Positions 28,308 through 54,189 of a stretch of 64,000 nt of DNA are shown piece by piece (within the stretch, counting starts at the first letter, position 1; the number at the start of each line of letters is the position of its first letter). The DNA is from a virus. Its lineage: Duplodnaviria; Caudoviricetes. The translations under genes were made by a program, and so were the position numbers. The stretch lies in the IMG/VR virus record IMGVR_UViG_3300017914_002346; one strand, given 5' to 3'. Under the pieces are notes generated by a model, which was not told where the DNA came from, ran no database searches, and was given only the letters and a program-made list of their open reading frames with translations.

Positions 28308-29792
28308 TTAACCCCAGAGAATAGAGTCCATCTCAAGAGTTGAGTTCTTCAACTCCTCTTCAAGCTCTTGTTTCTCTGCATTCGCTTCATCCCAAAGTCC
28401 TTGACCATCGAGTTGTACACCACCAGGAAGTTCAGTATTTTGATATTTCTTTAAATTAGAACCCCACTGTTGCTTTGCTAACACCGTAGCATATCTTTTT
28501 AACCATGTGTTTTTATAAACCTCACCTGTTAGTTCTGGATCTGCTTGTTCATATACTTCACATAAAAGATAAAAATCTCCTCTACTTTTACCTGTCTTAA
28601 TTCTATTCCAATCTACGTCTAAATATAATCTACTTCTATATTGATTAAATCTTATTGCAGGAGCTGTGTTTAATAAAAAGTCAATATGTTCTACATTTAA
28701 CTTTTGTGTGTAGTAGTTTGATAAACCAGTACCTACAGCATTACCATAGAACATATCAAAGTTATTAAGGAAGTACTGATATTCAAAATTGTACATACCT
28801 GCATGAGTGAAAGAATCTACTTTAGCAACCTTAGTAACAGATACAATACTATCTGGAACTTTAATACCAATCTGTCCTGTAGATGTAACTGTAATGTTTT
28901 CATCTTCTAATACTTTTAATTCTTCTTTAAAGTATTTGCTAAAGCCATTATGAGCTGTTCGTTTACCAAATCTTCTAGGTCTTGTAGATGTAGGGCTAAA
29001 ACGTTGACTTCTTAGAACATCTCTTTGTGTATATCTAGTAGCTCTTTCTATAATTACCAATTTAAATCTTTGATCTGAATCTGTATCTAAATCACTATCA
29101 AACAATCTAAAAGTAGTACCATCGGAATCTTGTACGTATGCACCAACTTCGTCACTATCATATCTATTAGAGTAATCTAAATCTGAGTCAAGTAGTCTAT
29201 AAGTAACACCGTCAGAGTCTAAAATATATGCTCCGCTATTATCAGAATCATATACTTGGTAATAATCTAAATCAGAATCAATAGCTCTAAATTCAGAACC
29301 ATCAGAATCTAAAATATGAGAACCGTATTGTTCAGAGTCATAAAATTTAGCTGTTTCAGAAATGTCTAAATCACTATCAAATACTCTTATATTACCATCT
29401 GAATCTCTTACAAAGGCACCATTAGTATCTGAATCATAAAAGATATTAGTTGACTCTGAATCAGTCTTAATAAAGATTCTATTTCCTCTAGTATTATCAA
29501 CTTTAACCATAACTCTATCACCAATGCGATAGTCGTTTAGCTTATCTGAGTCAAATTTTTCTGCTGTAAGATCTTGGTGAATTCTATTATTACGGTTAAG
29601 TAAATTTGAATCTACTTTAATTGTTCTCCAAGATCTAGTTACACCATCATAGTGATAGTTGTAAAAGAATTGCACGGCTTCGTCAATACAATCTTCCAAT
29701 TGTACATCAGCGATTTCTACGTTAATGACTGGCGCGCCTAGTCTACGTAAAACCCAATCTGCTAACTCTTGTTTAGTCGCTGGTAATGGCAT
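28308..29792 (-). CDS. gp13: Neck protein with internal DSD-repeat insertion
   Basis: L.DW.LRRLGAPVINVEI...QLEDCIDEAVQFF..YHYDG and WLKRYAT.L.KQQWG.NL.KY....LPGGV.LDG ends. Confidence 0.9.
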   Translation of the reverse strand: MPLPATKQELADWVLRRLGAPVINVEIADVQLEDCIDEAVQFFYNYHYDGVTRSWRTIKVDSNLLNRNNRIHQDLTAEKFDSDKLNDYRIGDRVMVKVDNTRGNRIFIKTDSESTNIFYDSDTNGAFVRDSDGNIRVFDSDLDISETAKFYDSEQYGSHILDSDGSEFRAIDSDLDYYQVYDSDNSGAYILDSDGVTYRLLDSDLDYSNRYDSDEVGAYVQDSDGTTFRLFDSDLDTDSDQRFKLVIIERATRYTQRDVLRSQRFSPTSTRPRRFGKRTAHNGFSKYFKEELKVLEDENITVTSTGQIGIKVPDSIVSVTKVAKVDSFTHAGMYNFEYQYFLNNFDMFYGNAVGTGLSNYYTQKLNVEHIDFLLNTAPAIRFNQYRSRLYLDVDWNRIKTGKSRGDFYLLCEVYEQADPELTGEVYKNTWLKRYATVLAKQQWGSNLKKYQNTELPGGVQLDGQGLWDEANAEKQELEEELKNSTLEMDSILWG

Positions 29793-31371: not shown

Positions 31372-31398
31372 AAGGACTCCTCATTATAAAATGAAGAG

Positions 31399-32025: not shown

Positions 32026-32026
32026 C

Positions 32027-34132
32027 TTAAGCTCCTGCTACCTCACTAAATGATACTCCAGTTCTCACAGCAACAAAGTTCAGTGTAATGAAGTTAATTG
32101 AGCGAGCTGGCTTCAGGTAGATATCAGCTACGAATTGATTAGAGTCGATAACCTGACCTGTGTTATTAGATGTATCACAAACAACCTTAAAGTCAGTTAA
32201 ACCTCTTCTTGCTTGTACTTCAGCAAGAAATGGCTCAATAGCATTAACGAATGTTCTTCTTGTCAAGTCATCGTTAAACTCGAACAATTGGAACTTAGCA
32301 GCTGTTGCAATTGCTTTTTCAAGAACAATGAACAATCTACGTACGTTAATTCTATCAAACGCAGAAGGCCTAGACAATGCTGTCTTATCACCGTATAACA
32401 GAGTACCCTGACCTCTAAAGGTTACGATAGGGTTAATTCTGTTAGGATAGAGCTGATCTCTATCTGTTTGATTTGGATTGAATGATAATTTAACAACGTT
32501 CTGGATAAACCCTCTGTTTAAACCAGCAGGTGAATACCAAGCTTCGTTAGTAAATTCTGTTCTTGCTGTTAAACCTGCTGTATCAGGGTTAATTGGCATC
32601 CAGAAATACTCGTCGTTATATCTATCATACTGTCTCTTCCAGCTTGAATCGAATACAGCATATGAAGTAGAGTTAATGTCTGAGAAATAGTCAATAACTT
32701 TAGTTGCTGTTGGATTGTTTACAGCTGCAGAATAGCTAGGTGATAAGAACGCTATAGCATCTTTCCTTTTCTCTGCAATTGTTATAACATGTTTTTGTAC
32801 TGTTTTCGATCTTTCACCAGTAATAAGTAGATTTACATCAATAACCTGATCATCGTTTAATAGGTCATAAGCAGTTGTATAGTTACCATCAGTAATAGAT
32901 GAACCATCATTACCACCACCTAATGTATATCTTCTTAAACCAGTTAAGCTTACATTTGTTAACAAATACTTAAATCTATTTGATGTAGCTAAGTTTGTTA
33001 ATGTATCACCAATTGAACTTAAAGCAGTACCACCTGAACCATCAGAGTCAATAGTAGATGATTGTGCTTTGGTTTCTTCATTAAGAAGATAAACCCAATT
33101 AGAAGCATCATTAACTGCATCTACATAGAAGTTACCTGCACCGTCTGCTGTTTTACTATTTTTAGCTTTAGATAAGTATGCATATGTTTCTAATGTTTCA
33201 TTTGCTGTACCGGTAATCTTTGTATCTGTAGTATAGATAACAACATGAACTTCATCGAATAATGTGTTCGTGTAATTACCCGCCCATGTTGATGTACCTG
33301 GTCTTGTATCGAACAAATCAGCGCCTGTAGTGTTACCATATAGCTTATAATTCTTAAAGTCAGAATCGTTTATAGAAGCATCCATGATATAGATACCAAT
33401 ACTATTTCCTAACTCACCAGGGAATCTAGCATATACTGAACCGTTAACAAGTGTTGATTTTTCTACTTCAAAGTCATCAAAGTTATTAATTTGAGCTGAA
33501 GTAATTCTAGTTGTTGTACTTGCACTTGTATTTGACAAGAATGTAAATGTTACGCCGTTTACTGTCTGTGCAGCTGGTAAGGTAATACCTGTTGCAGAAT
33601 ATTTTAATGTGGGGTCTACAATACCTGCAATACCATCTGAGTCAGCAGTAACTGATGAGAAACCATCACTATCCATTGCTTCTCTCATTGCATCAAGTAC
33701 TGAATCTAATGTTAATGCATCAGCACTAAATGAAACTTCTGTTGTTCCGTCTACCTTTACATCAAATCCTGATGCAGAAGGTGTACCTGATAATACAACT
33801 GAAATTGTTGAAGAAGAACCAACAACCGGCTCTGATGCACTATTTCTTGCACCATCAGAGATTGCTCTAACTACTTGTAATTGATTTGCATAACCAAGGA
33901 AGTTAGCTGCTGCGTACCAATCATCTCTTGTACTTGAGGCCGCGTTTGTTGAAACTTTTGGGTATCCAAATTTAGCGAGAAGATCTTTCTCTGAAGATAC
34001 CGTTGTTACTTCTAACGCTGGACCCCATTCGAAAATACCAGCAAAGCCACCAATAGACGTTGCTACTGCTGGAATAATGTTGGTAAGATCTTTCTCTACG
34101 ATTTGTACACCTGGACTAACTAAAAATGCCAT
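32027..34132 (-). CDS. gp18: Tail sheath protein
   Basis: SPGVQIVEKDLT, F.WGP, AANFL.Y, W.SPAGLNRG, LYGDKT, FDRINVRRLF, FVADIYLKPARSINFITLNFVA. Confidence 0.97.
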   Translation of the reverse strand: MAFLVSPGVQIVEKDLTNIIPAVATSIGGFAGIFEWGPALEVTTVSSEKDLLAKFGYPKVSTNAASSTRDDWYAAANFLGYANQLQVVRAISDGARNSASEPVVGSSSTISVVLSGTPSASGFDVKVDGTTEVSFSADALTLDSVLDAMREAMDSDGFSSVTADSDGIAGIVDPTLKYSATGITLPAAQTVNGVTFTFLSNTSASTTTRITSAQINNFDDFEVEKSTLVNGSVYARFPGELGNSIGIYIMDASINDSDFKNYKLYGNTTGADLFDTRPGTSTWAGNYTNTLFDEVHVVIYTTDTKITGTANETLETYAYLSKAKNSKTADGAGNFYVDAVNDASNWVYLLNEETKAQSSTIDSDGSGGTALSSIGDTLTNLATSNRFKYLLTNVSLTGLRRYTLGGGNDGSSITDGNYTTAYDLLNDDQVIDVNLLITGERSKTVQKHVITIAEKRKDAIAFLSPSYSAAVNNPTATKVIDYFSDINSTSYAVFDSSWKRQYDRYNDEYFWMPINPDTAGLTARTEFTNEAWYSPAGLNRGFIQNVVKLSFNPNQTDRDQLYPNRINPIVTFRGQGTLLYGDKTALSRPSAFDRINVRRLFIVLEKAIATAAKFQLFEFNDDLTRRTFVNAIEPFLAEVQARRGLTDFKVVCDTSNNTGQVIDSNQFVADIYLKPARSINFITLNFVAVRTGVSFSEVAGA

Positions 34133-34159
34133 TGTGAACTCCTGTATAAACTCTTTCTT

Positions 34160-34167
34160 TATTTATT
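34160..34167 (-). promoter_or_regulatory. T4-type late promoter
   Basis: AATAAATA upstream of the gp18 AGGAG RBS. Confidence 0.55.
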
Positions 34168-34172
34168 TTTTC

Positions 34173-35495
34173 CTAAACCCTTCTGATGATGAAGCTACCA
34201 GCATCAAAGGTCTCTATAACTTCCGCATTAAATGTCATATCTGTAAAGTCATCTTTAAATCTAAAATGTATTGAATCATCAGATGCTAATCCTGAATCTA
34301 AATCAATATACATCTTATCAATATATTGCATTGCAAGTGAGTTGCTGTTTACTGAATATATAATAAATCTTATTACGTTTTCAAATGCTGTGCCTTCAGC
34401 AACAACAAACTCTTGACTTACAATTTCTCCGCCACCTAAACCACTAATAGCCCACTTAAATGTAGTTTCTTCTGATAAAGTAGCACCTGTCTGTACATAA
34501 TCTACTGCAATAATATCTGAATCAGATGTAACAACTGCAGCAGGCGGGTTAATAGTATTTGATGAACCTACTCCTAATAATTTTTCTAGTGCTGCAATTC
34601 TTGTTAAATGTGAATCAGTTTCTTTTGTAATTGAAGTGTGTAGTGAATCACTATCTAAGTCAGATCCACCTATTCTGTTTAGATTAATAGTTCTAACAAT
34701 TCTATCTGAATCAAAGTGATCTGAATCTTCTAGTCTAGTTAATCTAGTTCTAATAATTGTAATTCTGTCTCTTGTATAACCTTCTTCTGAATCAAAGTCA
34801 TCTTCAACTACATTTAATCTTCCGCTAATATGTTGTAGTTTCTCTTCATCAGAATCTAGTCTTCTGTAAATATCTGTTAAATCAAGATTTTCAGAATCAA
34901 TATCAGATCTCAAAGCTCTAACTTCTAATGATTCTGAATCCATATCAGATCTAAGTTTTGCTATATCTTCTTCGTTCTGAGTAACTTTTTCTAATAATCT
35001 TCCATCACTATCTAAAGTAGATACAATATTTCTAATTCTTTCTGCATCTGAATCTGCATTACGTTTAAGATGCTCAATAGCAATCATATCACTATCAAGA
35101 CGTCTAATAATATCTAACAATTCTGTCTGATCAGAATCAAGTAAGGTTTGTAATTCGTCTATTCTCTTTTGTAAATGTTGAATGACAGTAGAGTCGGAAT
35201 CTCTATCTGACATTAATTGATCTACATCATTTCTAAGAGTTGAAACTACTGCTAAATCAGAATCAGTAAAGAGACTATTCTCTCTAACCATACTTCTAAT
35301 TTGATCAGAATCAAATCCTGAACCTCCACTTCCAGCAGAATGTTCATTAATAAGATCAACAATGTAATCCGAGTCTATATTGACTCGAAATACACCTTCG
35401 TAATCACTATTCTCATTATAATCAACAATGATTCCAGGGCCGGCTTCGACCCTGACCATCATGGGATAAAAATCTGAATCAAAATTGTAAGCCAT
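34173..35495 (-). CDS. Coiled-coil virion protein rich in DSD motifs (fibritin/whisker-like)
   Basis: Heptad repeats with about 14 DSD and 3 DSE; late promoter upstream. Confidence 0.6.
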   Translation of the reverse strand: MAYNFDSDFYPMMVRVEAGPGIIVDYNENSDYEGVFRVNIDSDYIVDLINEHSAGSGGSGFDSDQIRSMVRENSLFTDSDLAVVSTLRNDVDQLMSDRDSDSTVIQHLQKRIDELQTLLDSDQTELLDIIRRLDSDMIAIEHLKRNADSDAERIRNIVSTLDSDGRLLEKVTQNEEDIAKLRSDMDSESLEVRALRSDIDSENLDLTDIYRRLDSDEEKLQHISGRLNVVEDDFDSEEGYTRDRITIIRTRLTRLEDSDHFDSDRIVRTINLNRIGGSDLDSDSLHTSITKETDSHLTRIAALEKLLGVGSSNTINPPAAVVTSDSDIIAVDYVQTGATLSEETTFKWAISGLGGGEIVSQEFVVAEGTAFENVIRFIIYSVNSNSLAMQYIDKMYIDLDSGLASDDSIHFRFKDDFTDMTFNAEVIETFDAGSFIIRRV

Positions 35496-35516
35496 ATATA
35501 CTACTCAACTTTAATA

Positions 35517-35524
35517 TATTTATA
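35517..35524 (-). promoter_or_regulatory. T4-type late promoter
   Basis: Perfect TATAAATA. Confidence 0.7.
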
Positions 35525-35535
35525 TAAAGTTGAGA

Positions 35536-38073
35536 CTAGAGTTCATACTCTGCAGTTGGTGGTGTAAAGTTAGCAGTGTATCTTGCAAGACCTCTAGTAA
35601 ATCTTAAATCTTGTATGTATCCATGGAATTGATTGTTAGATAAATTATATCCGTTAGCACCTATGACAGGCGCGGCAACTCCATGATTATAACCATTTGT
35701 ATCTGAATACGTACCATCACTTACACCATCAGTATACAAAGTTGTTGTTCCATTATTTCTAACTAATGCAATATGATACCAAGTATCTACAGATAAGACA
35801 CTACCGGTAATTCTATTAGCTTGCTGAGCATATAATTTTATTCCAGCGCTAGAGTCATGAGTAATAGTTATATATGCACCGTTAGTGTTTCTAGGTCTAG
35901 TATCAAATATTGTCATACTATGATCAACTGCATTTAAGCGCATCCAAAATTCTATAGTAAAGTCATCTATTCCTCCTACACCAACTATACCTTTATTGTT
36001 ATTAGTATTAGTTTCATTTTCCCCAATAATATAATCACCATTTCCATCAAAATAAATTGCAGAAGACGTTGTAAATTTTCTTTCTGTAGTTGAAGCTATA
36101 ACATTACCAACAGTTCTAAAAGTGATACTACCGGTAGCATCATAGATATTAGTATCACTTTTATTGTTCATAATAAAAACAGTATTAGTATCAAAAGTAA
36201 CAGGTTCTGTAGGAACATCAATATAATCTCCTACTGTGTAAAGAGCTGTACCTTTAGTAATCTTTACATCAGCTATATAACCGTCAACATAGTTATTAAC
36301 ACCTCTATTAACTCCTATTTGTATATTGTCATCTGTAGAATAGTTTACTGTATCTGCAATATCACTTACCGCTCTAATACCATTGACCCACATTTGTGAC
36401 ACTGATGATTTTCTCTGTACTACAACATGATGCCATGCATCTCTTACGCCTAGTCCAGTAGTAGAATCTTGATTTCCTGTCCCTCTAGCATATCTAAATT
36501 TATCACTAGAGTAATAAATTTGCCACGTATTTCCTGATGAACCTGCATCAGTGGAGCTTATAAAAGGATCGTTGGCAGCACTAGGATTTGTTTCTGGTCT
36601 CCACCATAATTCAACAGTAAAGTCTCCAGTACCAAAATTGCCTATACCTGTGCCTGCAGCTGTTTTTACATAGTCTCCGTCACCATCCATGTATAAAGAA
36701 CCACCGTTAGTGCCCGGTATCCAAGGTTCATAATTATATGGCCCAAACGGGTATGTATTAGGAAAACTATTATTTGCTAGGGCAATTCTATTTGTTGATT
36801 TATCAATGTGACATGGTGCACCACATCCTAAAAATTGAGTATTAGTTATTGCTGTTAATGGTTCTGTTGGAGGGGTAAATGCACCAGTATATACAGCTGA
36901 GCCTATGACTACTCTTAAATCTCGTATGTAGCCTGTGTAGTATGCACCGTTACCTCCACCATTTCTAAAACCATAACCAATTCTCAATCTCGGGTTAGCA
37001 TCAGTATAACCACCACTAATAGCGAGACTTGATTGCTCGACCCCATCTACATATGATTTTAATGTACCTCCATTTCTTACAATGGCAATGTGATACCATG
37101 TTCTATTACTTACGGATGATACTAAAGTTTCCGCTGATTCTAAATTCCAAGTTGAATTATCTGATGATGAATAGAAAGTAAGGTTACCGCTAGCAACGTA
37201 AATTAGTAACGGACCTCTTAATACATCAGATGGAGCAAGTTCCAGTACAGTGCTTGTATTATACCAGTTTGTAGAGTATACCCAACACTCAACTGTCCAA
37301 TCATCGCTTCCAAACTTTAAGTTAGCATTATTATCTGTTTCTAATCTATCATCTGTACCATCAAACCATGTACTATAACCACCTGAACGATATGGTGATA
37401 AGGATGAAGATTGCGTTGAGCCGGCTCTTGTAAATAGTATCCCATCTGAATTTTCAGAATCTAGATAGACTAGGTCACCGTTGGCTATATTATTACCTGT
37501 AGCTCTCATTAACATAGTAGTGTAAGCAGAATTATCTATTATATTACTAAATGATAATGTGAATGATGAAACCGCATCTGTTTGATTAACACCATCTGAA
37601 GCTCTAAATGTAACACTACCCGTATTGGATGCTGATGGCACTCCGTTTTCACTGTCAGGTGTTACAGTAAAAATTCTACCATTATCAGAATCTTTTGTTA
37701 TTGTTGCAAAAGTGTCAAAATCACTATCTGTAATAGCGGTGAATGTTATTGGCAATCCTTCAGAATCAACTGCATTAATAGTAATAGTTGTAGCAGTACC
37801 ATCATTATTAAGTTCATATGAACCTGCAGGTGAAGTTGTGTAATAAGGTGAAGTGTTAATAAGAGCAATATTATACCAACCAGAACCTGACCATAGGTAT
37901 AATCTATTAGTTGCTGTTACGTAGCCTTGGTCTCCTTGGGTGTTACCGCTTACAGGTAGATCATCTGTACTTGACACCACAATCATTTCTGTTAGATCAG
38001 CAGTCACGTAATTTTTATTGATTGTATTATTATCGTTAATACTTCTAGATAAAGCTCTGGATTTACTTGTCAT
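35536..38073 (-). CDS. Putative fibre/receptor-binding protein with three LamG (ConA-like) domains
   Basis: Three (D/N)(F/W)T(V/I)E.W...W.H(I/V)..(V/Q)R...G(Y)I.D.R modules; N-terminal module shared with the two neighbouring genes. Confidence 0.75.
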   Translation of the reverse strand: MTSKSRALSRSINDNNTINKNYVTADLTEMIVVSSTDDLPVSGNTQGDQGYVTATNRLYLWSGSGWYNIALINTSPYYTTSPAGSYELNNDGTATTITINAVDSEGLPITFTAITDSDFDTFATITKDSDNGRIFTVTPDSENGVPSASNTGSVTFRASDGVNQTDAVSSFTLSFSNIIDNSAYTTMLMRATGNNIANGDLVYLDSENSDGILFTRAGSTQSSSLSPYRSGGYSTWFDGTDDRLETDNNANLKFGSDDWTVECWVYSTNWYNTSTVLELAPSDVLRGPLLIYVASGNLTFYSSSDNSTWNLESAETLVSSVSNRTWYHIAIVRNGGTLKSYVDGVEQSSLAISGGYTDANPRLRIGYGFRNGGGNGAYYTGYIRDLRVVIGSAVYTGAFTPPTEPLTAITNTQFLGCGAPCHIDKSTNRIALANNSFPNTYPFGPYNYEPWIPGTNGGSLYMDGDGDYVKTAAGTGIGNFGTGDFTVELWWRPETNPSAANDPFISSTDAGSSGNTWQIYYSSDKFRYARGTGNQDSTTGLGVRDAWHHVVVQRKSSVSQMWVNGIRAVSDIADTVNYSTDDNIQIGVNRGVNNYVDGYIADVKITKGTALYTVGDYIDVPTEPVTFDTNTVFIMNNKSDTNIYDATGSITFRTVGNVIASTTERKFTTSSAIYFDGNGDYIIGENETNTNNNKGIVGVGGIDDFTIEFWMRLNAVDHSMTIFDTRPRNTNGAYITITHDSSAGIKLYAQQANRITGSVLSVDTWYHIALVRNNGTTTLYTDGVSDGTYSDTNGYNHGVAAPVIGANGYNLSNNQFHGYIQDLRFTRGLARYTANFTPPTAEYEL

Positions 38074-40601: not shown

Positions 40602-40603
40602 AA

Positions 40604-46322: not shown

Positions 46323-46345
46323 AGGGAGGAGATTAACTCCTCCCT
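46323..46345. other. Intergenic hairpin
   Basis: AGGGAGGAG-ATTAA-CTCCTCCCT perfect 9-bp stem; T-rich tail only on the plus strand. Confidence 0.6.
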
Positions 46346-46353
46346 TTAATTAT

Positions 46354-48369
46354 TTATGTGTGGTTAATATGCTGTCTAATCGCTTTTACGTTACCAGCAC
46401 CATTGGTAGGTGTCGCTCTTAGACGTACATTACCACCGCTAATGTCTGCATCAAGAGTAATAAACTCACTATCATGTGTAGACACTGTACCGTATTCTGT
46501 AATGTATGCGTTAGTATCATCATGAATAACAATTACTTCAGTTGCCATGTAAGATGAATCATTAGAGTCAGCGGAAATAAAGTATTTTACTGACCTGTAA
46601 TCACCTGTAGCAAATTCGTCTAATGTAAATGTAGCTTGTGAAGAGTAATCAGTATTTACATCATCAATTTTGCCTTCAATGTCAGTTCTTAACGCTTGAA
46701 TTGCTAACTCATCAGAGTCAAGTCTTGCTTCTACATCAGCACTTGTATTTTCTCCAATAATAGCTACAACTTGATCTGAGTCAAAACCAGCTTGAACTGT
46801 ACCTAAGTATTTTACAATACTAATGACATCATCAGAATCAGGTGGATCAACAAAAGTTACTGTAGAACCGTCCGTAGCTGTATAATCAGTTCCTGATGTT
46901 TGTAAGATACCGTTTAAGTAAACATGAATCTTATTAACTACATAGCTTAATGTTTGGCCATTATCATCAGCACCTGAGAAGTCAGAATCTTCATTATTAG
47001 CCGCAGTAAATGTAAATACACTTACTTGAATAGAAGTGTTACCACCTAAGTTATCAATTCTTGTATTAATAGTCTGTAACTGAGTTTCATCAGAGTCTAG
47101 TCTAGTCTGAATTGTTTCAATATCAGTACCTAAAGATTGAATCTTTGTTTCATCTGAGTCTGCTCTATTTTGTAGAGTAGTAATGTCACTAGAAAATGAT
47201 TCCTGCAATGCTTGGATAGCAGTGCTATCTGAGTCAGCATCAGCTCTTAATCTAGCAATTTCACTTGCATCACTATCTGCATCTCTTCTTAAATGACCAA
47301 TCTCGATAACATCAGAGTCAGCATTTGTTTCTAAGATATCGATACGACCTGCTAATGATTGAATAACTGCACTATCAGAATCAACATCTTCTCTTAAACC
47401 ATGTACTACAGCAAGATCAGAATCAGCCATTCCAGTGACGTTATTATTAATAAGATCAATAACATTATCAGAGTCTAATGTATTTTGAGTTACATACTTT
47501 ACAGTAACAAGATCTGAATCATTTGTTGGGTTATAATCTGCATAACCAACTGAGATTCTAGTAAAACCTGTAGAGTCACTATTACCACCTAATACAAGTT
47601 GATTAGGTTGTGTAGCTCTTGCACCATAACCTATAACACCTGAATAATCTAAGTCAGAGTCTACATCAGCGTCTCTACCAATTGCAATGTTACCTGTACT
47701 TAAACCAGCTGAACCTTGACCAATTGCAACAGACCATTGACCGGTTTTTGCGGAATCACCAATTGCCACTGATCTAGTATCAGATTGAGCGTTATTACCT
47801 AAGCTTACACTTGATACTTTACCTTGTGAATATCTACCAATAGCTATTGTATTACTATTATTAGCTACTGAGTTAGCACCAATTGCAATTGCACCAGAAG
47901 ATGTTGCTTTAGCCCGGGCTCCTGTACCATTATACTGGAAGAAACCATTACTTATACCCGAAGCACTTAAATCAGAATCGATATTATCTACTCTATTATC
48001 TAATAATTGAATAGCCGTTTCGTCTGAATCAAGAATATTATTAATTGTTTGGATGTCTGTAGTATGGCCACTTACTGTCTGGTTTAATGTGTCATGATCA
48101 GTTCTTAACTGCTGGATAATGGTTGAATCTGAGTCAGCATCTGATCTTAAAATGTCAATTTCACCCTGTAAAGACTGAATTACGGAACTATCACTATCAA
48201 TATCTTCTCTAAGAGCGGCAACAACAGCGAGATCAGAGTCGTTATTACCTACTTCTTTAACAATATTAATTACCGATTCTGAATCGAATACGGTAATGGT
48301 ACCACCTTTGTAGGTAATATCTCCGCCTACTTCTAGGCCGTTACGTACTTTAAAATCTCTAGTTGCCAT
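46354..48369 (-). CDS. Modular fibre protein (coiled coil, YadA-like head repeats)
   Basis: MATRDFKVRNGL start like 41749-46293, AIAIG repeats, about 19 DSD, C-terminal domain shared with 48402-49613. Confidence 0.7.
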   Translation of the reverse strand: MATRDFKVRNGLEVGGDITYKGGTITVFDSESVINIVKEVGNNDSDLAVVAALREDIDSDSSVIQSLQGEIDILRSDADSDSTIIQQLRTDHDTLNQTVSGHTTDIQTINNILDSDETAIQLLDNRVDNIDSDLSASGISNGFFQYNGTGARAKATSSGAIAIGANSVANNSNTIAIGRYSQGKVSSVSLGNNAQSDTRSVAIGDSAKTGQWSVAIGQGSAGLSTGNIAIGRDADVDSDLDYSGVIGYGARATQPNQLVLGGNSDSTGFTRISVGYADYNPTNDSDLVTVKYVTQNTLDSDNVIDLINNNVTGMADSDLAVVHGLREDVDSDSAVIQSLAGRIDILETNADSDVIEIGHLRRDADSDASEIARLRADADSDSTAIQALQESFSSDITTLQNRADSDETKIQSLGTDIETIQTRLDSDETQLQTINTRIDNLGGNTSIQVSVFTFTAANNEDSDFSGADDNGQTLSYVVNKIHVYLNGILQTSGTDYTATDGSTVTFVDPPDSDDVISIVKYLGTVQAGFDSDQVVAIIGENTSADVEARLDSDELAIQALRTDIEGKIDDVNTDYSSQATFTLDEFATGDYRSVKYFISADSNDSSYMATEVIVIHDDTNAYITEYGTVSTHDSEFITLDADISGGNVRLRATPTNGAGNVKAIRQHINHT

Positions 48370-48392
48370 TTTTAAACTCCAAAATTATACTT

Positions 48393-48400
48393 TATTTATT
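48393..48400 (-). promoter_or_regulatory. T4-type late promoter
   Basis: AATAAATA upstream of a GGAG RBS. Confidence 0.55.
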
Positions 48401-48401
48401 A

Positions 48402-49613
48402 TTAGTCAATTTGAGTCCTAATGAAGGACACATTTATATTAGCAAATTCAGGTGTTATAAGAAGTCTAACTTCTTCACCTGAAACATCTGCGTCAATAGT
48501 AAACAGATCACCACTTCCGGAATCTATTATTGAATATTCTGTAGCATATGCTACACTAGTATCATGATTAAGTAGAACTTCGCTCGACTGCCAGTCCGAA
48601 TCTTTTCTAGCAGATATCATATACTTTATAGTCTTATGTTCGTTTCTATCAAAAGTATCTAATACTTGATCTTCTGTTGTAGTAGTGAACGTAGCATCAT
48701 TAAGTCTGAAAGGTGTTCTGTTAATAACATAATCAGAATCTATATCATTCATCTCAGCTCTTAATTGAGCTATAGCTGCAGCATCACTATCCGCGGCTCT
48801 TTTGAGATCAGCAATAGCTACTGCATCGCTGTCTGCATCTTTTCTTAAATTAGCAATTTCAACTACATCTGAGTCTGCATTAGTAAGTAACAATTGTATA
48901 CGTACAGTTTCTGAATCTAGATCTAATCTAAGCTTATCTACTAGCTCTTGAATGTTTTGAATTTTAATTGAATCAGAATCAACGTCATTTCTAAGATCTG
49001 CAACTATTTGCAAATCTGAATCAGTCATTCCTGTACCAGAATTTTCGTTAATTATAGCAACAATCTGATCTGAATCAAAACCGCTAGAAGAACTTAAACC
49101 AAAGTTACCTACATACGTGTAGGCTGCAATATAAACTGAATTACCAGATATACCAGAAGGTAAATTATTACCAATAAAGTTTAGTACACCTGCTTGATAA
49201 TCAAAATACCATTCGTCATTGTTTCCAGAACCAGCAGCAAAAACTTGGTTTGATATATCAGCTGCATTGTCACTATCATTAGAAGTATGAATATAAACTT
49301 TAGCTTGATATGTTGAACCAAATTCAGGCGGTATCCAATCAGTTTTATTAGCTAACCAAGTTCTATTAGTAGTAGCTGTAGCATCCGCTTCTAGTTCCAA
49401 AACATTATAGTATCTAACTACACCAGTAGTTGAACCAGGAGCTGTTGCAGGAATATCAGCTGATTGTGCCCATAAAGTATCTGATCTTATTAAAAGAGGA
49501 GAGGCTATAGCTTCGTTTGTAGGACCTTTTTGATCACTAGTATCTGTTTTCGTAGCACCGAAAGCTAGTTTCTTAAACAGGAGGTCAATTTTTTGTGCGT
49601 CAGTAATAGCCAT
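48402..49613 (-). CDS. Virion structural protein with DSD coiled coil
   Basis: N-terminal globular domain (WIPPEFGSTY, WYFDYQAGVLNF), 14-aa DSD repeats, C-terminal KY.IS...SEV...HD...AY.TEY domain. Confidence 0.65.
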   Translation of the reverse strand: MAITDAQKIDLLFKKLAFGATKTDTSDQKGPTNEAIASPLLIRSDTLWAQSADIPATAPGSTTGVVRYYNVLELEADATATTNRTWLANKTDWIPPEFGSTYQAKVYIHTSNDSDNAADISNQVFAAGSGNNDEWYFDYQAGVLNFIGNNLPSGISGNSVYIAAYTYVGNFGLSSSSGFDSDQIVAIINENSGTGMTDSDLQIVADLRNDVDSDSIKIQNIQELVDKLRLDLDSETVRIQLLLTNADSDVVEIANLRKDADSDAVAIADLKRAADSDAAAIAQLRAEMNDIDSDYVINRTPFRLNDATFTTTTEDQVLDTFDRNEHKTIKYMISARKDSDWQSSEVLLNHDTSVAYATEYSIIDSGSGDLFTIDADVSGEEVRLLITPEFANINVSFIRTQID

Positions 49614-49614
49614 T

Positions 49615-52600
49615 TTATGTAATACTCAACCCTGTTATTGTATCTCCGGAATCTAAACCAATTCTAACTAAGATAATATTATTAGTAGCATTTGAAGATG
49701 AAATAGTTCCAAGTGTCATAGTTTTAGCTCCACTCAAAGCACCTGAACCTATTACATCACTACCTGTAGAAGCACAACCATCTGATCCATTACCACCATT
49801 ACCTGTATCGGAGCCTGGGACACCTGCACCTGCATACTGTGCTCCACAATTTAACCAACCATTTAACCCTGAAGCAGAATCAATAGTTGTTCCTGGTACT
49901 GCTATCCAAACACCAGCTACACCAGTACTAGATGTTATATTTAAGTTAAAATTACTTACTTGTGTTCTTCTAAAAGCAAAGGTAAAATACTGTGTACCTG
50001 TTAATCCTGATCTATCTGGTCCTTTAGGTAAGTAACCTGATGTAAAATCAGTTACATCATGTTTTAATGTACCCATTCTAATAATAGCTTCTTGACCTTC
50101 AGAATCTATATCCGCTGCTTGAGTTGATTCAGAATACACATTATTAGTGTAATGATTTATAGAGCTATTTACAGGAGGGTTATCTGAATCTGCTACATAG
50201 TCTAAAATTCTTACAGCATCGTCATCATAACCTGCGCCTAAACTATCACTTACTGCTACAGCTATCTCTGATATACCATATTGTGAAGACGTGTGCACTG
50301 CTATTTTATGTGAAGTAATATTAGTATAAGAACCAGAACCGTTTACATTAGTACCTCTAATTCTTAGATTGTCAACAACTCTAACATTAGAAGTGGTAAT
50401 AGGAACTGTTAAATCTCCTATTGCATATGCACTTGAAACACCAGTATCGGCTAATGGAATACCTCCAGATAAGAATGTGGTACTTCCATCAATGTTTGAA
50501 TATGTATAATCTCTATTAGAGATCGCATTACCAGAACCTTCTGCAGGAGAACCTGATTCAACTTCAATAGGATCTGAAATATTAGCGTAGGTTTGTCCAC
50601 TTATATTACTTACAGTAGTTCCGGATAATGTTAACTGTGGAGATCCTGAATTATAATAAGGAATACCAGAAATATATCTATAAGTACCAGCTGTTGATTC
50701 TGATAATGTACCTGTACTTGAAATTGATGGTGTTGAAGTCACATCATCATGAATAAAGTGCACAGTGTTAGTATCACCGGTTGCATCATGAGATAATTGA
50801 TAAGAATGTGAACCTGCACTTAAGCTAGACTTTGAAACTCTAGCTTTGAATACTTCATACTTATTAGGAGCATAAATGGACGAAGCAAACGATACAGTAG
50901 AACCAGAAGCGTTTATAGTATTAGCATCAATGTCTTCAGTAACTACTAATGATGTATAAGTACCTGAATCGTTTCCTGTAGTAAATGCTTTGGAACCATC
51001 AGTACTACCATCAACTTTCGCACTTAAAGTACCAGAAGCAGCATCGTGAGCATACGTTGATATTGTACTAGATGAAATTGTACCTGAACCTATTGTTCTA
51101 GTTACACTATCACCAGCATTAATTGTTGTACCACCTGATACGTTGTCTGTAAACCCTGAAGCAGCTCTTGGTGAAGTACCTGTTGAAGAAGGAGCGCTTA
51201 TAGTCTTAGTACTTAATCCATTAGGAGCAGCTATTTCAGAATCATACACTTTAATTAAAGAAGATGTACTTAAAGGAATAACTGATGGATTAGCAGTGCC
51301 ATGTGTTTGTAGAGTTAATTGTATAGTATGTCTTCCTGTGCCAGAATCAGTAGTGTAGGTATGAGATATTCTGTTACCATCTACACCACCATCTTCTGAA
51401 TTAGAAACTGAATCAGAATCACCATCACCCCATTCTATTTCAAACGTTGCAGTTTGACCTGTAGTATTTGTTGTAGTATTTTCAAACCAAATAGTCTGTT
51501 CTGTCTCTACACCAGTAGTTCCTAAATTAATAGAACTACCTCCTGATTCTTGTAAATAAATTGCAAATGAAGCAACAGGATCAGCACCGTATAATACAAT
51601 GTAATCGTTTCTTAAAGATTCAGCAAAAGAACCTGCTCCTCTGCCATTATTATTTCTTGCTACAACTCTTACACTAAATGGTGTGTTTGTATTATCATTA
51701 TACGTATGAGAAGGAGTTGAATCAGAAGTATCTGAATCTATAGTTTCACCTTCACCCCAATAGACATCGTATCTGTTAGGGTTCCCATCAGCATTAATAG
51801 TAAGAGTTACGTTCATACCTTCACCACCAGAAGTTTGGTTAGCGGTAAAACTTACATTAGTAACAGCTGTACTATTAAGTACATTATGCATAGCTTCGTT
51901 TAACTGATCAATAGCTGAAGTAACAGATGTATCAGAATCAAAAGTCTCAACAATGGCTCTAGGAGACTGGTATTCTGAATCATAGGCTTCTGTACCTAAA
52001 TAAATCTCTCTTGCATTAGTAGATCCTTCAGTAGTGTTTTCGTTTATAATAGCTACAATTTGATCTGAATCGAACCCTGTATTATCTGAGACATTTTCAT
52101 TAATAATATTTACAATACCATCAGAATCAAAACCTGTTGATCTGTTTGCAAAATCAGAGTCTAAATCTCTTCTAAGTATTCTAATCTGAGCTGATTCTGA
52201 ATCCAGATCATTACGTAATATAGATACAGTAGTTAAATCAGAATCTTCTAAGCCATTAAATAGAGCTATTTTATTATTGAATAATGCATAATCAGAGTCT
52301 ACAGATTCTCTTATAGCTTGTATTGTTACACTATCACTATCAGCATCTCTTCTTAACTCAGCAATTGCTGAAGCATCAGAATCAGCACCTGCTTCTAATA
52401 TACCTACTCTAGTAGATAAGTCTTGTATCTTAGTTTCATCTGAATCAAGTCTAATATTTGTAATATAGTTGTTTGCTTGAATAGCAGTTTCATCTGAGTC
52501 TAATCTATTAGTTAATGTTTGAATATCAAACTTTTGAGTTTGTAGATTGTTTTGAATTGCTTGTCCATCAGAATCTACATCAATTCTAAGAACAGTAATA

Positions 52601-54189
52601 GCAGATGCGTCAGAATCTAATCTTGTTAAGATGTCTTGAATTCTTAAAGTTTCACTATCTAGATCTCTACGTAATGCAGCAGTTGCAGCAACATCTGAAT
52701 CCATAGAAGACTGGTTTTCATTTATTATTGCAACAATTTGATCAGAATCAAAACCTTGAGCAGCACCGGAATCTGAATCAACATCGGCTCTAAGTGCTCT
52801 TATTTCAGCAATTTCAGAATCTAGATCAGAACGTAACTTTCTAATTTCAGTTGACTCAGAATCAATAGATGCTCTTAAGGCTGAAATAGCAAGTGAATCA
52901 GAATCACTAGCAGCTAACAATGTTTGAATTCTTAAAGTTTCAGAGTCAATATTAGAGAATAGTTTATTAATATTGGAACTTTGTACACCATTAGTTTGAA
53001 CTACTTGATCTATTCTTGTTCTTAAATCTTGTATAACTATTTCATCTGAATCTAATCTTGCATTTAAAGTACTGGCATCACCTAGCTCAACTTGAACAAC
53101 TCTATTATATAAATTTTTAATATCAGAATCATGTTTTTGAATTACTACAGAATCAGAATCTACATCAGCTCTTAGAGCTCTTATTTCAATAGACTCAGAA
53201 TCTAATCTATCAAATAACACTTCAATAGATGTTTCATCAGAATCTAATTCTGCTCTTAACAATCCTATCAAATTTGCATCATATTCAGCATTAGTTTTAC
53301 TATCCTGAATAGCTAAACTGTCGCTATCAGCATCTCTTCTTAACTGAGCAATTGCAATAGCATCAGAATCAGCATTTGATTCTAGTAACTGAATCCTATC
53401 TTCATGATCTCTAATAACTGTAGATTCTGAATCTAGATCATTTCTTAAAATGCTTAATGTTTCGTAATCAGAATCAGCTAGTTTAGCTCCGACAGCTTCT
53501 ATAGCATCAATCTGTGTTTGTAAACTTTGTAATTTTTGACCATCAGAATCAACTCTAGTGTTAAGAGCATTTATAGATTTTAATGTTGATTTAACTTTAA
53601 TACTATCAGATTCATGATCATTTCTTAAAATACTTAAAGTATTATAATCTGAATCTCTAAGCGGACCTGGGTTTTCATTTATTATAGTTACTATTTGATC
53701 TGAATCAAAACCTGCAACAGGAGCGTTTTCATCTATTATAGCAACGATTTGATCTGAATCAAAACCGGTATTATCTATCTGGTTTTCTAATACCATTGAT
53801 CTTATCTGATCAGAATCAAAACCAGTATTTTCATTTTCTCTAATGATAGTAACAATCTGATCACTATCAAAACCTGTATCATCTGTTAATCTATTTTCTT
53901 CTATTATAGATACAATTTGATCTGAGTCAAAAGAATTGACACCAGTACCAGAATTTTCATTAATAATATTAACAATTTGATCGCTATCAAAACCAGCGCT
54001 GCCCAAACTCTTTCTAACAGTATCAGTTACAGAATCTGAATCATAAATTCTGTCTTTTGCATTATTCGTATTGTTTGAGATATAATTTACAATATACTCT
54101 TCAACAGAAACTTGTGGGTCACCTACTTTTAATGAAGTGATACCGCTCAGTTCTCCTGTTCGGGCATTGTATCTAAATCTTTGTGGCAT
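49615..54189 (-). CDS. Large virion protein: DSD coiled coil, PKD-like domains, Ser/Thr/Gly-rich beta region
   Basis: Six tandem FDSDQI...EN repeats, ~500-aa heptad region, W(G)EG/WGDG...SHTY PKD motifs; about 35 DSD and 10 DSE. Confidence 0.7.
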   Translation of the reverse strand: MPQRFRYNARTGELSGITSLKVGDPQVSVEEYIVNYISNNTNNAKDRIYDSDSVTDTVRKSLGSAGFDSDQIVNIINENSGTGVNSFDSDQIVSIIEENRLTDDTGFDSDQIVTIIRENENTGFDSDQIRSMVLENQIDNTGFDSDQIVAIIDENAPVAGFDSDQIVTIINENPGPLRDSDYNTLSILRNDHESDSIKVKSTLKSINALNTRVDSDGQKLQSLQTQIDAIEAVGAKLADSDYETLSILRNDLDSESTVIRDHEDRIQLLESNADSDAIAIAQLRRDADSDSLAIQDSKTNAEYDANLIGLLRAELDSDETSIEVLFDRLDSESIEIRALRADVDSDSVVIQKHDSDIKNLYNRVVQVELGDASTLNARLDSDEIVIQDLRTRIDQVVQTNGVQSSNINKLFSNIDSETLRIQTLLAASDSDSLAISALRASIDSESTEIRKLRSDLDSEIAEIRALRADVDSDSGAAQGFDSDQIVAIINENQSSMDSDVAATAALRRDLDSETLRIQDILTRLDSDASAITVLRIDVDSDGQAIQNNLQTQKFDIQTLTNRLDSDETAIQANNYITNIRLDSDETKIQDLSTRVGILEAGADSDASAIAELRRDADSDSVTIQAIRESVDSDYALFNNKIALFNGLEDSDLTTVSILRNDLDSESAQIRILRRDLDSDFANRSTGFDSDGIVNIINENVSDNTGFDSDQIVAIINENTTEGSTNAREIYLGTEAYDSEYQSPRAIVETFDSDTSVTSAIDQLNEAMHNVLNSTAVTNVSFTANQTSGGEGMNVTLTINADGNPNRYDVYWGEGETIDSDTSDSTPSHTYNDNTNTPFSVRVVARNNNGRGAGSFAESLRNDYIVLYGADPVASFAIYLQESGGSSINLGTTGVETEQTIWFENTTTNTTGQTATFEIEWGDGDSDSVSNSEDGGVDGNRISHTYTTDSGTGRHTIQLTLQTHGTANPSVIPLSTSSLIKVYDSEIAAPNGLSTKTISAPSSTGTSPRAASGFTDNVSGGTTINAGDSVTRTIGSGTISSSTISTYAHDAASGTLSAKVDGSTDGSKAFTTGNDSGTYTSLVVTEDIDANTINASGSTVSFASSIYAPNKYEVFKARVSKSSLSAGSHSYQLSHDATGDTNTVHFIHDDVTSTPSISSTGTLSESTAGTYRYISGIPYYNSGSPQLTLSGTTVSNISGQTYANISDPIEVESGSPAEGSGNAISNRDYTYSNIDGSTTFLSGGIPLADTGVSSAYAIGDLTVPITTSNVRVVDNLRIRGTNVNGSGSYTNITSHKIAVHTSSQYGISEIAVAVSDSLGAGYDDDAVRILDYVADSDNPPVNSSINHYTNNVYSESTQAADIDSEGQEAIIRMGTLKHDVTDFTSGYLPKGPDRSGLTGTQYFTFAFRRTQVSNFNLNITSSTGVAGVWIAVPGTTIDSASGLNGWLNCGAQYAGAGVPGSDTGNGGNGSDGCASTGSDVIGSGALSGAKTMTLGTISSSNATNNIILVRIGLDSGDTITGLSIT

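What the first reader, a model, noticed from the sequence alone, without database searches (positions are those of the whole stretch)
28308..54189. A DSD tripeptide written across the outer virion proteome: candidate phage-specific modification sequon
Seen: about 140 Asp-Ser-Asp and about 30 Asp-Ser-Glu (manual count) in ten proteins: gp13 (~13), gp18 (4) and all eight genes between gp17 and gp18 (about 14, 2, 6, 4, 36, 19, 9, 35). I found none in gp23, gp20, gp19, gp3, gp21, gp17, gp46, gp47, UvsW or PhoH, and only single copies in gp22, 27100-27420 and 60489-61208. The motif occurs in unrelated contexts: coiled coils, loops of VYLNG repeats (APDSDD), PKD domains and the fibre tip (VHDSDYLYVC), so one repeat expansion cannot explain it. 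It uses both Ser codon boxes (GATTCTGAT, GATTCAGAT, GACTCTGAT, GATAGTGAT), pointing to protein-level selection. Established: Ser-Asp repeats of staphylococcal Sdr/Clf adhesins are O-glycosylated by SdgA/SdgB, and Bacteroidota O-glycosylate D-(S/T)-hydrophobic motifs. Inference: D-S-(D/E) is a sequon recognised by phage enzymes encoded in this window, giving a densely modified virion surface. An alternative is a repeated cation-binding patch.
Basis: partly seen in the sequence, partly recalled or inferred. Interest (0 to 1): 0.92.

Follow-up and report, generated by a model that had tools for sequence, protein, structure and literature searches.

The report
Asp-Ser-Asp tag on phage tail proteins
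One uncultured clade of marine T4-like phages writes the tripeptide Asp-Ser-Asp/Glu about 17 times more often than chance into the outer proteins of its tail, neck and fibres and almost nowhere else; this looks like a tag read by some unknown factor, but no enzyme that reads it could be tied to it.

Summary
Ten proteins carry 142 DSD and 31 DSE, against about 8.6 and 3.3 expected. The other 46 ORFs carry 3 DSD.

- **Order- and Ser-specific:** DDS 2, SDD 10, DTD 3; DxD with any other middle residue is not enriched (61 observed, 71 expected).
- **Protein-level:** Ser codon use in DSD matches the background.
- **Clade trait:** relatives with at least 59% sheath identity have it (G001: 139 observed, 14 expected). 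Pelagibacter phage Mosig (9 vs 13.5) and G002 (5 vs 8.5) do not.
- **Site evolution:** sites are gained independently in variable loops. Ser in the motif is conserved 86% against 61% for other Ser.
- **Structural contexts:** the b-c-d register of trimeric coiled coils (second Asp in the core, Ser outside), helix starts and beta loops.

The sequon reading is plausible, since SdgB glycosylates a minimal DSD peptide, but it is unproven. The proposed writers are not supported. Homologues of the window's glycosyltransferases, radical SAM enzymes, hydroxylase and carbamoyltransferase occur in DSD-free Mosig, and a close DSD-rich relative has other genes at the cluster's position. An intrinsic cation-binding or structural role is the main rival.

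The scan found this motif before on other DNA of the same clade, with the same outcome.

The parts
28308..29792 (-). gp13-like neck protein (494 aa) with 13 DSD and 2 DSE, nearly all in an insertion at aa 81-240 (about 29073-29552). The insertion has about 30-aa units with three DSD each.
   Evidence: and 4 counts. PHROG head-tail adaptor Ad2. Homologues carry PF26809 Phage_T4_gp13. The insertion is absent in L003 and L005. Other relatives have larger arrays with up to 32 DS[D/E] at 9-10 residue spacing. The AF2 model of the insertion is unreliable (pLDDT about 25-30).
32027..34132 (-). Tail sheath gp18 (701 aa) with 4 DSD at aa 154, 164, 256 and 362, all in variable outer loops or insertions.
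   Evidence: Pfam sheath domains. Alignment with 10 relatives shows sites in clade-specific loops that are gained and lost independently. DSD-negative homologues have STS, NAT, STG or gaps there.
34173..35495 (-). 440-aa coiled-coil protein with 14 DSD and 3 DSE, mostly at 14- or 21-residue spacing.
   Evidence: Orthologues in L001-L003 and L088 at 55-78% identity keep most sites.
35536..41755 (-). Three paralogues (845, 843 and 383 aa; two with LamG/ConA-like domains). DSD and DSE cluster in their shared N-terminal region (TKDSDNGRTF, AIDSDDVPLTYT).
   Evidence: The 845-aa protein alone is not significant (2 DSD; 42 of 500 shuffles reach it).
41749..46293 (-). 1514-aa fibre protein with 36 DSD and 7 DSE, in coiled-coil repeats, GFDSDQ[IV]V helices, APDSDD loops and the C-terminal VHDSDYLYVC.
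46354..48369 (-). 671-aa fibre or baseplate-attached protein with 19 DSD and 2 DSE. This is the protein that was modelled.
   Evidence: AF2 model: helices 45-136 and 318-441 with pLDDT up to about 90. Heptad register D(b) S(c) D(d). Trimer model of aa 40-140. Its C-terminal part resembles T4 gp9 and tailspike adaptor domains. Of 68 metagenomic homologues, 63 carry 3 or more DSD and 50 carry 10-36.
48402..49613 (-). 403-aa protein with 9 DSD and 1 DSE. Its N-terminal domain (phrog_9417) is shared with Caulobacter, Brevundimonas and Salicola phages.
49615..54189 (-). 1524-aa fibre protein with 35 DSD and 10 DSE: seven GFDSDQIV units, long coiled-coil repeats and PKD domains.
   Evidence: PKD PF00801.
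300..12213 (-). Sugar-nucleotide and glycosyltransferase cluster. It holds a KdsA-like enzyme, cytidylyltransferase-cupin, GDP-mannose 4,6-dehydratase, DegT aminotransferase, an SDR and about five weak or putative glycosyltransferases.
   Evidence: Pfam and PHROG hits. Several have homologues in DSD-free Mosig or G002.
56454..63998 (.). Start of the tailoring-enzyme cluster next to gp16/gp17: three radical SAM proteins, an Asp/Asn beta-hydroxylase-like protein, a NodU-type carbamoyltransferase, a GT-like 259-aa protein and PP-loop proteins. No DSD enrichment. Not tied to the motif.
   Evidence: Pfam. It continues beyond the window in L111. Homologues occur in DSD-free Mosig. Different genes lie at this position in L088.

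Best explanation
hydrophobic-Asp-Ser-Asp/Glu is a lineage-specific short linear motif that selection has placed, and keeps placing, on the solvent-facing parts of the tail-side virion proteins: sheath, neck, baseplate-attached proteins and fibres. The most likely reason is that a factor recognises it, and the best candidate is an enzyme that modifies the serine hydroxyl. O-glycosylation is the leading guess, by analogy with SdgB acting on DSD. In the coiled coils the second Asp ends up in the trimer core, so recognition would have to occur on the unassembled chain, before or during fibre folding. Shown here: enrichment, order and Ser specificity, protein-level selection, clade restriction, independent gains, extra conservation of the Ser, Ser outside the trimer interface in a model, and restriction to tail-side proteins. 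Inferred: that there is a reader, that it is an enzyme, and the chemistry. The writer is unidentified; it may lie in unseen parts of the genome or be a host enzyme.
For: 142 DSD and 31 DSE against 8.6 and 3.3 expected; DDS 2, SDD 10, DTD 3, ESD 1. DxD with a residue other than Ser is not enriched (61 vs 71.2 expected), so Ser itself is selected. Ser codons follow the background. A hydrophobic residue precedes the motif in 74% of sites against a 38% background. The trait is found only in the clade with at least 59% sheath identity: L001-L004, L006, L007 and L059 are 4-14 fold enriched in ORFs of 100 aa or more from all six frames. L005, which lacks the fibre genes, is 1.9 fold, and about 70 loci at 40-45% identity scatter around 1. 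G001 has 139 vs 14.2. Mosig has 9 vs 13.5 and G002 5 vs 8.5. Of 68 metagenomic fibre homologues, 63 carry 3 or more DSD and 50 carry 10-36, with at most one DTD each. Sheath sites lie in variable loops and differ between relatives. DSD-negative homologues have ordinary loop residues at aligned positions, not DxD. Ser in DS[D/E] is conserved at 63/73 positions against 292/480 for other Ser (Fisher p 1.1e-5), while Asp shows no difference. The motif occurs mid-helix, at helix starts and in beta loops. In the trimer model the second Asp of each DSD is in the interface, and the Ser and first Asp are not named. Precedent: SdgB O-GlcNAcylates the minimal DSD peptide (PMC8561734). The phage carries a large glycan-synthesis capacity.
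Against: No enzyme co-varies with the trait. Every enzyme family shared by the two DSD-rich genomes and plausibly a transferase is also present in DSD-free Mosig. No SdgB-type GT4 (PF00534) or Maf-type (PF01973) enzyme was detected in the 61%-complete G001 record; these two searches did not cover the window, where Pfam scans of its ORFs at E up to 0.001-5 listed neither family (6, 9, 10, 13, 50, 57). In coiled coils the motif is in fixed register with its second Asp at core position d. A pure tag could have used the fully exposed e-f-g positions, so at least there the motif has a structural role. The major capsid protein, which is also exposed, has none. Non-structural proteins show no clear avoidance of DSD (3 vs 4.3 expected). 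No chemical evidence of any modification exists.
Confidence: 0.4

Rival explanations
1. The motif is an intrinsic cation-binding or structural word that needs no writer. DSD gives polar core layers in trimeric coiled coils (Asp at d, perhaps holding Ca2+ or Mg2+) and acidic turn or loop sites elsewhere. These would stabilise long external fibres in sea water or bridge to anionic host surfaces through divalent cations.
For: Heptad register D(b) S(c) D(d), with Asp replacing the usual Leu every 14 or 21 residues. The trimer model scores 0.84 against a best control of 0.26, a mark reached by 20 of 30 proteins solved as pairs of one chain and 1 of 23 solved as single chains; runs agree in at least 98% of contacts and partner pLDDT is at least 92. 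The second Asp is in the interface. A pass may reflect likeness to solved trimeric coiled coils. The profile matches P22 tail needle gp26 (E 2e-4), Lpp, the langerin neck and a TAA fragment, all trimeric coiled coils. gp26 has a polar core motif that binds Ca2+, and RxD is a known interchain motif (PMC13580157); the repeat here reads L-R-x-D-hydrophobic-D-S-D. The gp13 units read D-S-D-x-N-G-x-F, like the start of an EF-hand loop (my reading).
Against: There is no general DxD enrichment, and Thr, Gly, Asn and Ala are nearly excluded at the middle position. Known DxD-type calcium sites tolerate many residues there (my knowledge). The Ser is outside the modelled interface, yet it is the residue with extra conservation. 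Only about a third of sites (56 of 173) fit the coiled-coil register. Aligned loops in DSD-free homologues carry no acidic motif.
Confidence: 0.33
2. The motif is a binding determinant for a non-enzymatic partner: another virion component, an assembly chaperone or a host surface structure. The many copies would act as a multivalent patch.
For: The same specificity, exposure and tail-side restriction as for the sequon reading. No writer was found.
Against: No candidate partner is known. Copies in very different geometries are hard to reconcile with one binding mode. The second Asp is buried in coiled coils.
Confidence: 0.12
3. The excess is only inherited: a few DSD-bearing repeat modules were amplified and shuffled among fibre genes.
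For: Spacings of 14 (37 times), 21 (17) and 10 (13) dominate. GFDSDQ[IV]V and coiled-coil units recur in several fibre genes. The eight genes between gp17 and gp18 are an insertion relative to G001 and Mosig.
Against: Sites also occur in sheath, gp13, gp14, gp15 and the gp9/10-like protein. They are gained independently in orthologous loops. Synonymous codons vary, including both Ser codon boxes. The excess persists across a clade down to 59% sheath identity.
Confidence: 0.05

Closest known systems
Staphylococcal Ser-Asp repeat O-GlcNAcylation by SdgB/SdgA (PMC8561734; PMC3794999)
   Same: The minimal acceptor is the same tripeptide: SdgB modifies the peptide DSD. The target is a Ser flanked by acidic residues on surface-exposed adhesive proteins.
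   Different: There the substrate is a long disordered (SD)n tract; here isolated DSD sit in folded helices, turns and loops. No GT-B/GT4 homologue of SdgB was found in the window or in G001. No modification has been shown here.
Polar-core trimeric coiled coils of phage needles and trimeric autotransporter adhesins (P22 gp26 Ca2+-binding NxxQD motif, N@d layers, RxD motif; PMC13580157)
   Same: Heptad repeats have a polar residue at a core position at regular intervals. An R-x-D element precedes the motif. There is profile similarity to gp26, and the trimer model passes.
   Different: The core residue is Asp at d, preceded by an exposed and conserved Ser. That motif was not mentioned in the one paper I searched by terms. 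The same tripeptide also occurs outside coiled coils.
Bacteroidota general O-glycosylation sequon D-(S/T)-(A/I/L/V/M/T)
   Same: A three-residue Asp-Ser-x motif that marks many surface proteins.
   Different: The third residue here is Asp or Glu (173 sites) and rarely hydrophobic (A 4, I 6, L 6, V 6, T 10). Thr is not accepted at the centre. That system acts in the periplasm, whereas phage proteins fold in the cytoplasm (my knowledge).
Mycobacteriophage virion glycosylation by phage-encoded glycosyltransferases (Freeman et al. 2023, from my knowledge; PMC12363180 and PMC11256854 hold the phrase 'virion glycosylation', but were not opened)
   Same: A phage decorating its own virion proteins with sugars, using its own transferases.
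   Different: As I recall it, the targets there are Ser/Thr-rich C-terminal tails of capsid and tail-tube proteins, not a dispersed tripeptide. Here the capsid is unmarked and no writer is known.
Host recognition cluster of pelagimyophages (PMC7029224)
   Same: Fibre genes are intermixed with glycosyltransferase and radical SAM genes in a hypervariable region of marine T4-like phages.
   Different: That paper interprets the transferases as host LPS modifiers. A search of its text for six terms (tmRNA, glycosyl, tail fiber, radical SAM, hydroxylase, host recognition) showed no mention of such a motif, but DSD was not among the terms. The cultured pelagimyophage Mosig has no DSD excess.

Membership tests
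SdgB/SdgA-type SD-repeat glycosylation | Acceptor Ser in an Asp-Ser-Asp context | tested here: met
   142 DSD, Ser-specific. SdgB acts on the minimal DSD peptide.
SdgB/SdgA-type SD-repeat glycosylation | GT-B (GT4, Glycos_transf_1) transferase related to SdgB encoded with the substrates | tested here: not met
   No PF00534 hit among the window ORFs scanned. None in DSD-rich G001, while DSD-free G002 has one. The genome is only partly visible.
SdgB/SdgA-type SD-repeat glycosylation | Long disordered tandem (Ser-Asp)n tract as substrate | tested here: not met
   Sites are isolated tripeptides at spacings of 10, 14 or 21 residues in helices, turns and loops.
SdgB/SdgA-type SD-repeat glycosylation | GlcNAc found on the Ser | not testable with these tools
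   Needs mass spectrometry of virions.
Bacteroidota O-glycosylation sequon | D-(S/T)-(A/I/L/V/M/T): hydrophobic or Thr third residue, with Thr accepted at the centre | tested here: not met
   DSx: D 142, E 31, T 10, I 6, V 6, L 6, A 4. DTD 3.
Maf-type (PF01973) flagellin-like O-glycosylation (lead from earlier notes on another lineage) | MptE/Maf-like transferase present in phages that carry the tag | tested here: not met
   PF01973 absent at E up to 0.1 in G001, G003, G002, G004 and Mosig. No such hit in window ORFs, even at E up to 5 for ten unannotated enzymes. Divergent forms and unseen genome parts are not excluded.
Polar-core trimeric coiled coil (gp26 / TAA type) | Heptad register with a polar residue at a core position, and trimer formation | tested here: met
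   Register. The trimer model scores 0.84 against a best control of 0.26, a mark reached by 20 of 30 solved same-chain pairs and 1 of 23 single chains; at least 98% contact agreement and pLDDT at least 92. The pass may reflect likeness to solved coiled coils. gp26 profile hit at E 2e-4.
Polar-core trimeric coiled coil (gp26 / TAA type) | Ion coordinated by the polar layer | not testable with these tools
   Needs a structure or metal analysis.
DxD / DxDxDG calcium-binding loops | Acidic DxD pattern with a variable middle residue enriched as a class | tested here: not met
   Non-Ser DxD 61 observed vs 71.2 expected.
Helix N-cap / Asx-turn motif | Motif consistently at helix starts or turn starts | tested here: not met
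   In the 671-aa model about 5 of 21 sites start a helix, 11 lie inside long helices, 3 are in beta loops and 2 are in unmodelled regions.

The most novel reading that the evidence does not exclude
A phage lineage has evolved its own three-residue sequon, hydrophobic-Asp-Ser-Asp/Glu. This window and the 10 kb beyond its right edge hold about 200 copies, and earlier unchecked notes count some 88 more elsewhere in the genome. They lie on the outer tail, neck, baseplate and fibre proteins. An as yet unidentified phage or host enzyme reads the sequon on unassembled chains and attaches a glycan or other group to the serine. The result would be a chemically coated tail apparatus, the bacteriophage counterpart of the N-x-S/T code of eukaryotic viruses.
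Probability: 0.35. Interest if true: 0.9.

Novelty: new variant of a known kind. Interest (0 to 1): 0.7.

Why it matters
Short linear motifs that mark a whole set of virion proteins are not an established feature of phage biology. If the serine is modified, this would be the first dispersed sequon described for a phage particle. It would give function to some of the many glycosyltransferase and tailoring genes that marine T4-like phages carry among their fibre genes, which are currently read as host LPS modifiers. It would also matter for host recognition, particle stability and metaproteomic identification of abundant ocean viruses. If instead it is an Asp-at-d ion layer with an obligatory surface Ser, it is a new coiled-coil design rule. 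Either way the motif is a simple sequence marker for one uncultured clade and for its outer virion proteome.

Tried and rejected
- **DNA-level motif or recombination signal:** rejected, because the nine-base words vary and both Ser codon boxes are used in background proportion.
- **Composition bias:** rejected by shuffles and by DDS and SDD counts.
- **Single repeat expansion:** rejected.
- **Window enzymes as writers by co-occurrence:** the small GT family (970-1671, 61195-61974, L111 6672-7391), the 194-aa protein, radical SAMs, the hydroxylase-like protein and the carbamoyltransferase all have homologues in DSD-free Mosig.
- **Genes shared only by the window and G001:** PhoH, head proteins, a 436-aa unknown (no informative Atlas hit) and a small APS/shikimate-kinase-like P-loop kinase. 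The kinase also occurs in Xylella, Xanthomonas and Stenotrophomonas phages, so it is not trait-specific.
- **Maf-like lead from earlier notes:** PF01973 was not found.
- **SdgB-like GT4:** not found.
- **An alternative tag in DSD-free phages:** Mosig has none, and G002's enriched tripeptides come from one tandem repeat.
- **The window's own contig in IMG/VR:** no exact match, and no whole genome is held.
- **DSD modules in 185,579 cellular genomes:** none. One pattern hit is a chance match in an unrelated 134-aa ORF.
- **tblastn of the 440-aa protein against cultured phages:** no match.
- **AF2 model of gp13:** too poor to use (pLDDT 44, insertion about 25-30).
- **Cupredoxin-like signature in the 1514-aa fibre:** no Pfam or PDB sequence support.

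Full report
**What the window is.** It is a 64-kb stretch of a T4-like phage with about 35% G+C.

- Its major capsid protein is only about 50% identical to those of cyanomyophages.
- The nearest cultured sheath is that of Pelagibacter phage Mosig, at about 50% identity.
- Gene order on the minus strand, by Pfam and PHROG:
  - a sugar-nucleotide and glycosyltransferase cluster (300-12213);
  - gp46 and gp47 (14539-17273), UvsW, UvsY and PhoH (plus strand);
  - gp23 (22863-24353), gp22 and gp21;
  - gp13-like (28308-29792), gp20, gp19 and gp18 (32027-34132);
  - eight fibre-like genes (34173-54189);
  - gp17 (54218-56071);
  - a tailoring-enzyme cluster (56454 onwards).
- No whole genome is held.

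**The observation.**

The other 46 ORFs hold 3 DSD against 4.3 expected.
- The excess is specific to residue order. DDS occurs 2 times and SDD 10 times, each with the same expectation of 8.6.
- It is specific to Ser. DTD occurs 3 times, DGD 4, DAD 10 and DND 0. DxD with any residue other than Ser is at expectation (61 vs 71.2).
- The first position is Asp (ESD 1, NSD 3). The third is Asp or Glu.
- The residue before the motif is hydrophobic in 74% of sites, against a 38% background.
- Ser codons in the motif are TCT 60, TCA 43, AGT 31, TCG 3, AGC 3 and TCC 2, as in the rest of the same proteins. Selection is therefore on the protein, not on a DNA word.

**A clade trait.** I fetched 80 loci around sheath homologues from IMG/VR.

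- Of the eight loci with at least 59% sheath identity, seven (L001-L004, L006, L007, L059) show a 4-14 fold excess. L005, which carries no fibre genes, shows 1.9 fold. About 70 loci at 40-45% identity scatter around 1. These counts use ORFs of 100 aa or more from all six frames.
- The 109-kb contig behind L059 (G001) has 139 DSD against 14.2 expected. They are concentrated in baseplate, fibre, neck and sheath genes, and DSD is its most enriched tripeptide genome-wide.
- Mosig has 9 against 13.5 expected and none in its annotated fibres, sheath or neck. The 131-kb contig G002 has 5 against 8.5.
- Of 68 metagenomic homologues of the 671-aa fibre, 63 carry 3 or more DSD and 50 carry 10-36, with at most one DTD each.
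- A further relative on long ENA contigs, L088 (82% sheath identity), repeats the pattern, with 47 DSD in one 1730-aa fibre.
- Beyond the window's right edge, the same phage's gp14, gp15, gp9/10-like protein and two further structural proteins carry 25 DSD and 6 DSE. The ten enzyme genes downstream of them carry none.

**Evidence that the motif itself is selected.**

- The four sheath sites lie in variable outer loops and insertions. Relatives share some sites, lack others and have sites of their own: L059 has YDSDL and FDSDL where this phage has other residues.
- At aligned positions, DSD-free homologues (sheath, LamG proteins, the 403- and 1524-aa proteins) have ordinary loop residues or gaps, not DxD.
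- In orthologues of 55-88% identity, Ser inside DS[D/E] is kept at 63 of 73 positions, against 292 of 480 for other Ser of the same proteins (p 1.1e-5). Asp is kept equally inside and outside the motif.
- The gp13 insertion is absent in L003 and L005. Other gp13 homologues hold larger arrays, with up to 32 DS[D/E] at 9-10 residue spacing.

**Structural contexts.**

- The AF2 model of the 671-aa protein has mean pLDDT 64, but the helices reach about 90. It places the 14- and 21-residue repeats in long continuous helices at 45-136 and 318-441.
- Written in heptads, the motif is always D(b) S(c) D(d). The second Asp replaces the Leu found at d in the other heptads, and R-x-D precedes it.
- A three-copy model of residues 40-140:
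  - It scored 0.84, against 0.26 for the best of three controls.
  - That mark was reached by 20 of 30 proteins solved as pairs of one chain and by 1 of 23 solved as single chains.
  - The runs agree in at least 98% of contacts, and the partner pLDDT is at least 92.
  - The pass may owe something to the many solved trimeric coiled coils.
  - Its interface lists residues 46, 60, 81 and 116, the second Asp of each DSD. It does not list the Ser or the first Asp.
- A profile of the family matches P22 tail needle gp26 (E 2e-4) and other trimeric coiled coils.
- gp26 is known to hold a Ca2+ in a polar core motif, and RxD is a known interchain motif (PMC13580157).
- Other sites start short helices (GF-DSD-QIVAIINEN) or lie in loops between strands. 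About a third of all sites (56 of 173) fit the coiled-coil register.
- The gp13 model is too poor to use.

**The proposed writers.** The window does encode much glycan chemistry:

- a KdsA-like enzyme, GDP-mannose dehydratase, a DegT aminotransferase and cytidylyltransferase-like proteins;
- about five weak or putative glycosyltransferases;
- three radical SAM proteins, an Asp/Asn hydroxylase-like protein and a carbamoyltransferase.

Comparison does not link any of this to the motif.

- DSD-free Mosig has homologues of both small glycosyltransferase-like proteins (36% and 31% identity by tblastn; 41% for the first), two radical SAMs, the hydroxylase-like protein, the carbamoyltransferase (33% over 365 aa) and several sugar-cluster proteins.
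- A syntenic trio (239-aa transferase, 194-aa protein, 259-aa transferase-like protein) is shared by this phage, G001 and Mosig.
- In L088 the genes next to gp16/gp17 are unrelated to the cluster found here.
- In G001, gp17 abuts gp18, and the enzyme region holds a different set: PF05118-like oxygenases, an SDR, a desaturase-like protein, an AurF-like protein and a GNAT-like protein.
- G001 has no detectable carbamoyltransferase, though it is only 61% complete.
- Genes found only in the two DSD-rich genomes are PhoH, head proteins, an unknown 436-aa protein and a small kinase that also occurs in unrelated cultured phages.
- Neither an SdgB-type GT4 nor a Maf-type enzyme was found in G001, and Pfam scans of the window's ORFs listed neither family.

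**Weighing the readings.**

- *For a reader of the motif:* strict Ser, strict order, a hydrophobic residue in front, many structural contexts, new gains in exposed loops, extra conservation of the exposed Ser, restriction to tail-side proteins and a sharp clade boundary. SdgB shows that DSD alone can be an O-glycosylation acceptor (PMC8561734).
- *Against it:* no writer is known. The fixed b-c-d register buries the second Asp, so recognition would have to precede trimer assembly, and this gives the motif a structural part in the coiled coils. The capsid carries none.
- *The cation-binding or structural reading* explains the coiled-coil register. It does not explain the Ser specificity, the lack of general DxD excess or the loop sites.
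- I put a modification sequon at about 0.4, an intrinsic cation-binding or structural word at about 0.33, a non-enzymatic binding determinant at about 0.12 and pure repeat inheritance at about 0.05.

**Earlier notes of this scan.**

- Other readers noted the same motif elsewhere in this genome.
- Follow-up agents on other genomes of the same clade reached the same outcome: confirmed, no writer found.
- Notes on a different lineage with a D-S-(A/D) tag link it to a Maf-like enzyme. I could not find that enzyme here.

Noticed in passing
window 43318-43662 (aa 878-992 of the 1514-aa protein 41749-46293); also P0002-P0029: A conserved segment inside DSD-rich fibre proteins carries a His ... Cys-x2-His-x2-Met pattern (GHPFEIR ... 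YQCTNHGSM), like the ligand set of a type-1 copper (cupredoxin) site. It is present in 25 of 68 metagenomic homologues. No Pfam or PDB sequence match supports it.
   Followed up: partly
window 34173-54189: The eight fibre-like genes between gp17 and gp18 are an insertion of this sub-lineage. In G001 and in Mosig the terminase gene directly abuts the sheath gene. L088 has a shorter set of six genes there.
   Followed up: partly
window 300-12213: A large sugar-nucleotide cluster: a KdsA-like enzyme, two cytidylyltransferase-like proteins, cupins, GDP-mannose 4,6-dehydratase and a DegT aminotransferase (a perosamine-type route is possible), an SDR, a 2OG oxygenase and about five weak glycosyltransferase-like proteins. 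The acceptor is unknown.
   Followed up: partly
window 1921-2379: A small APS-kinase or shikimate-kinase-like P-loop kinase, 59% identical to a G001 protein. It is absent from Mosig and G002 but 40-44% identical to kinases of Xylella, Xanthomonas and Stenotrophomonas phages.
   Followed up: yes
window 24423-26417: The gp22 scaffold homologue is very acidic (13% Asp, 19% Glu) and long (664 aa), yet it has only one DSD.
   Followed up: no
P0070-P0072 (gp13 homologues of relatives): The neck protein gp13 carries insertions of very different length (proteins of 330 to 834 aa). They are built of about 10-residue units such as VDSDGTFVQYDSDKH, with up to 32 DS[D/E].
   Followed up: partly
G002 (L104-L110): This DSD-free T4-like contig has fibre proteins dominated by one tandem repeat rich in LYY, ARV, YYT and ANV (63-115 copies each). 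This shows what a plain repeat expansion looks like, by contrast.
   Followed up: no
window 48402-49613, aa 1-210: The N-terminal domain (phrog_9417) is shared at 33-38% identity with giant Caulobacter and Brevundimonas phages and with Salicola phage SCTP-2. It is probably a conserved attachment domain for fibres.
   Followed up: no
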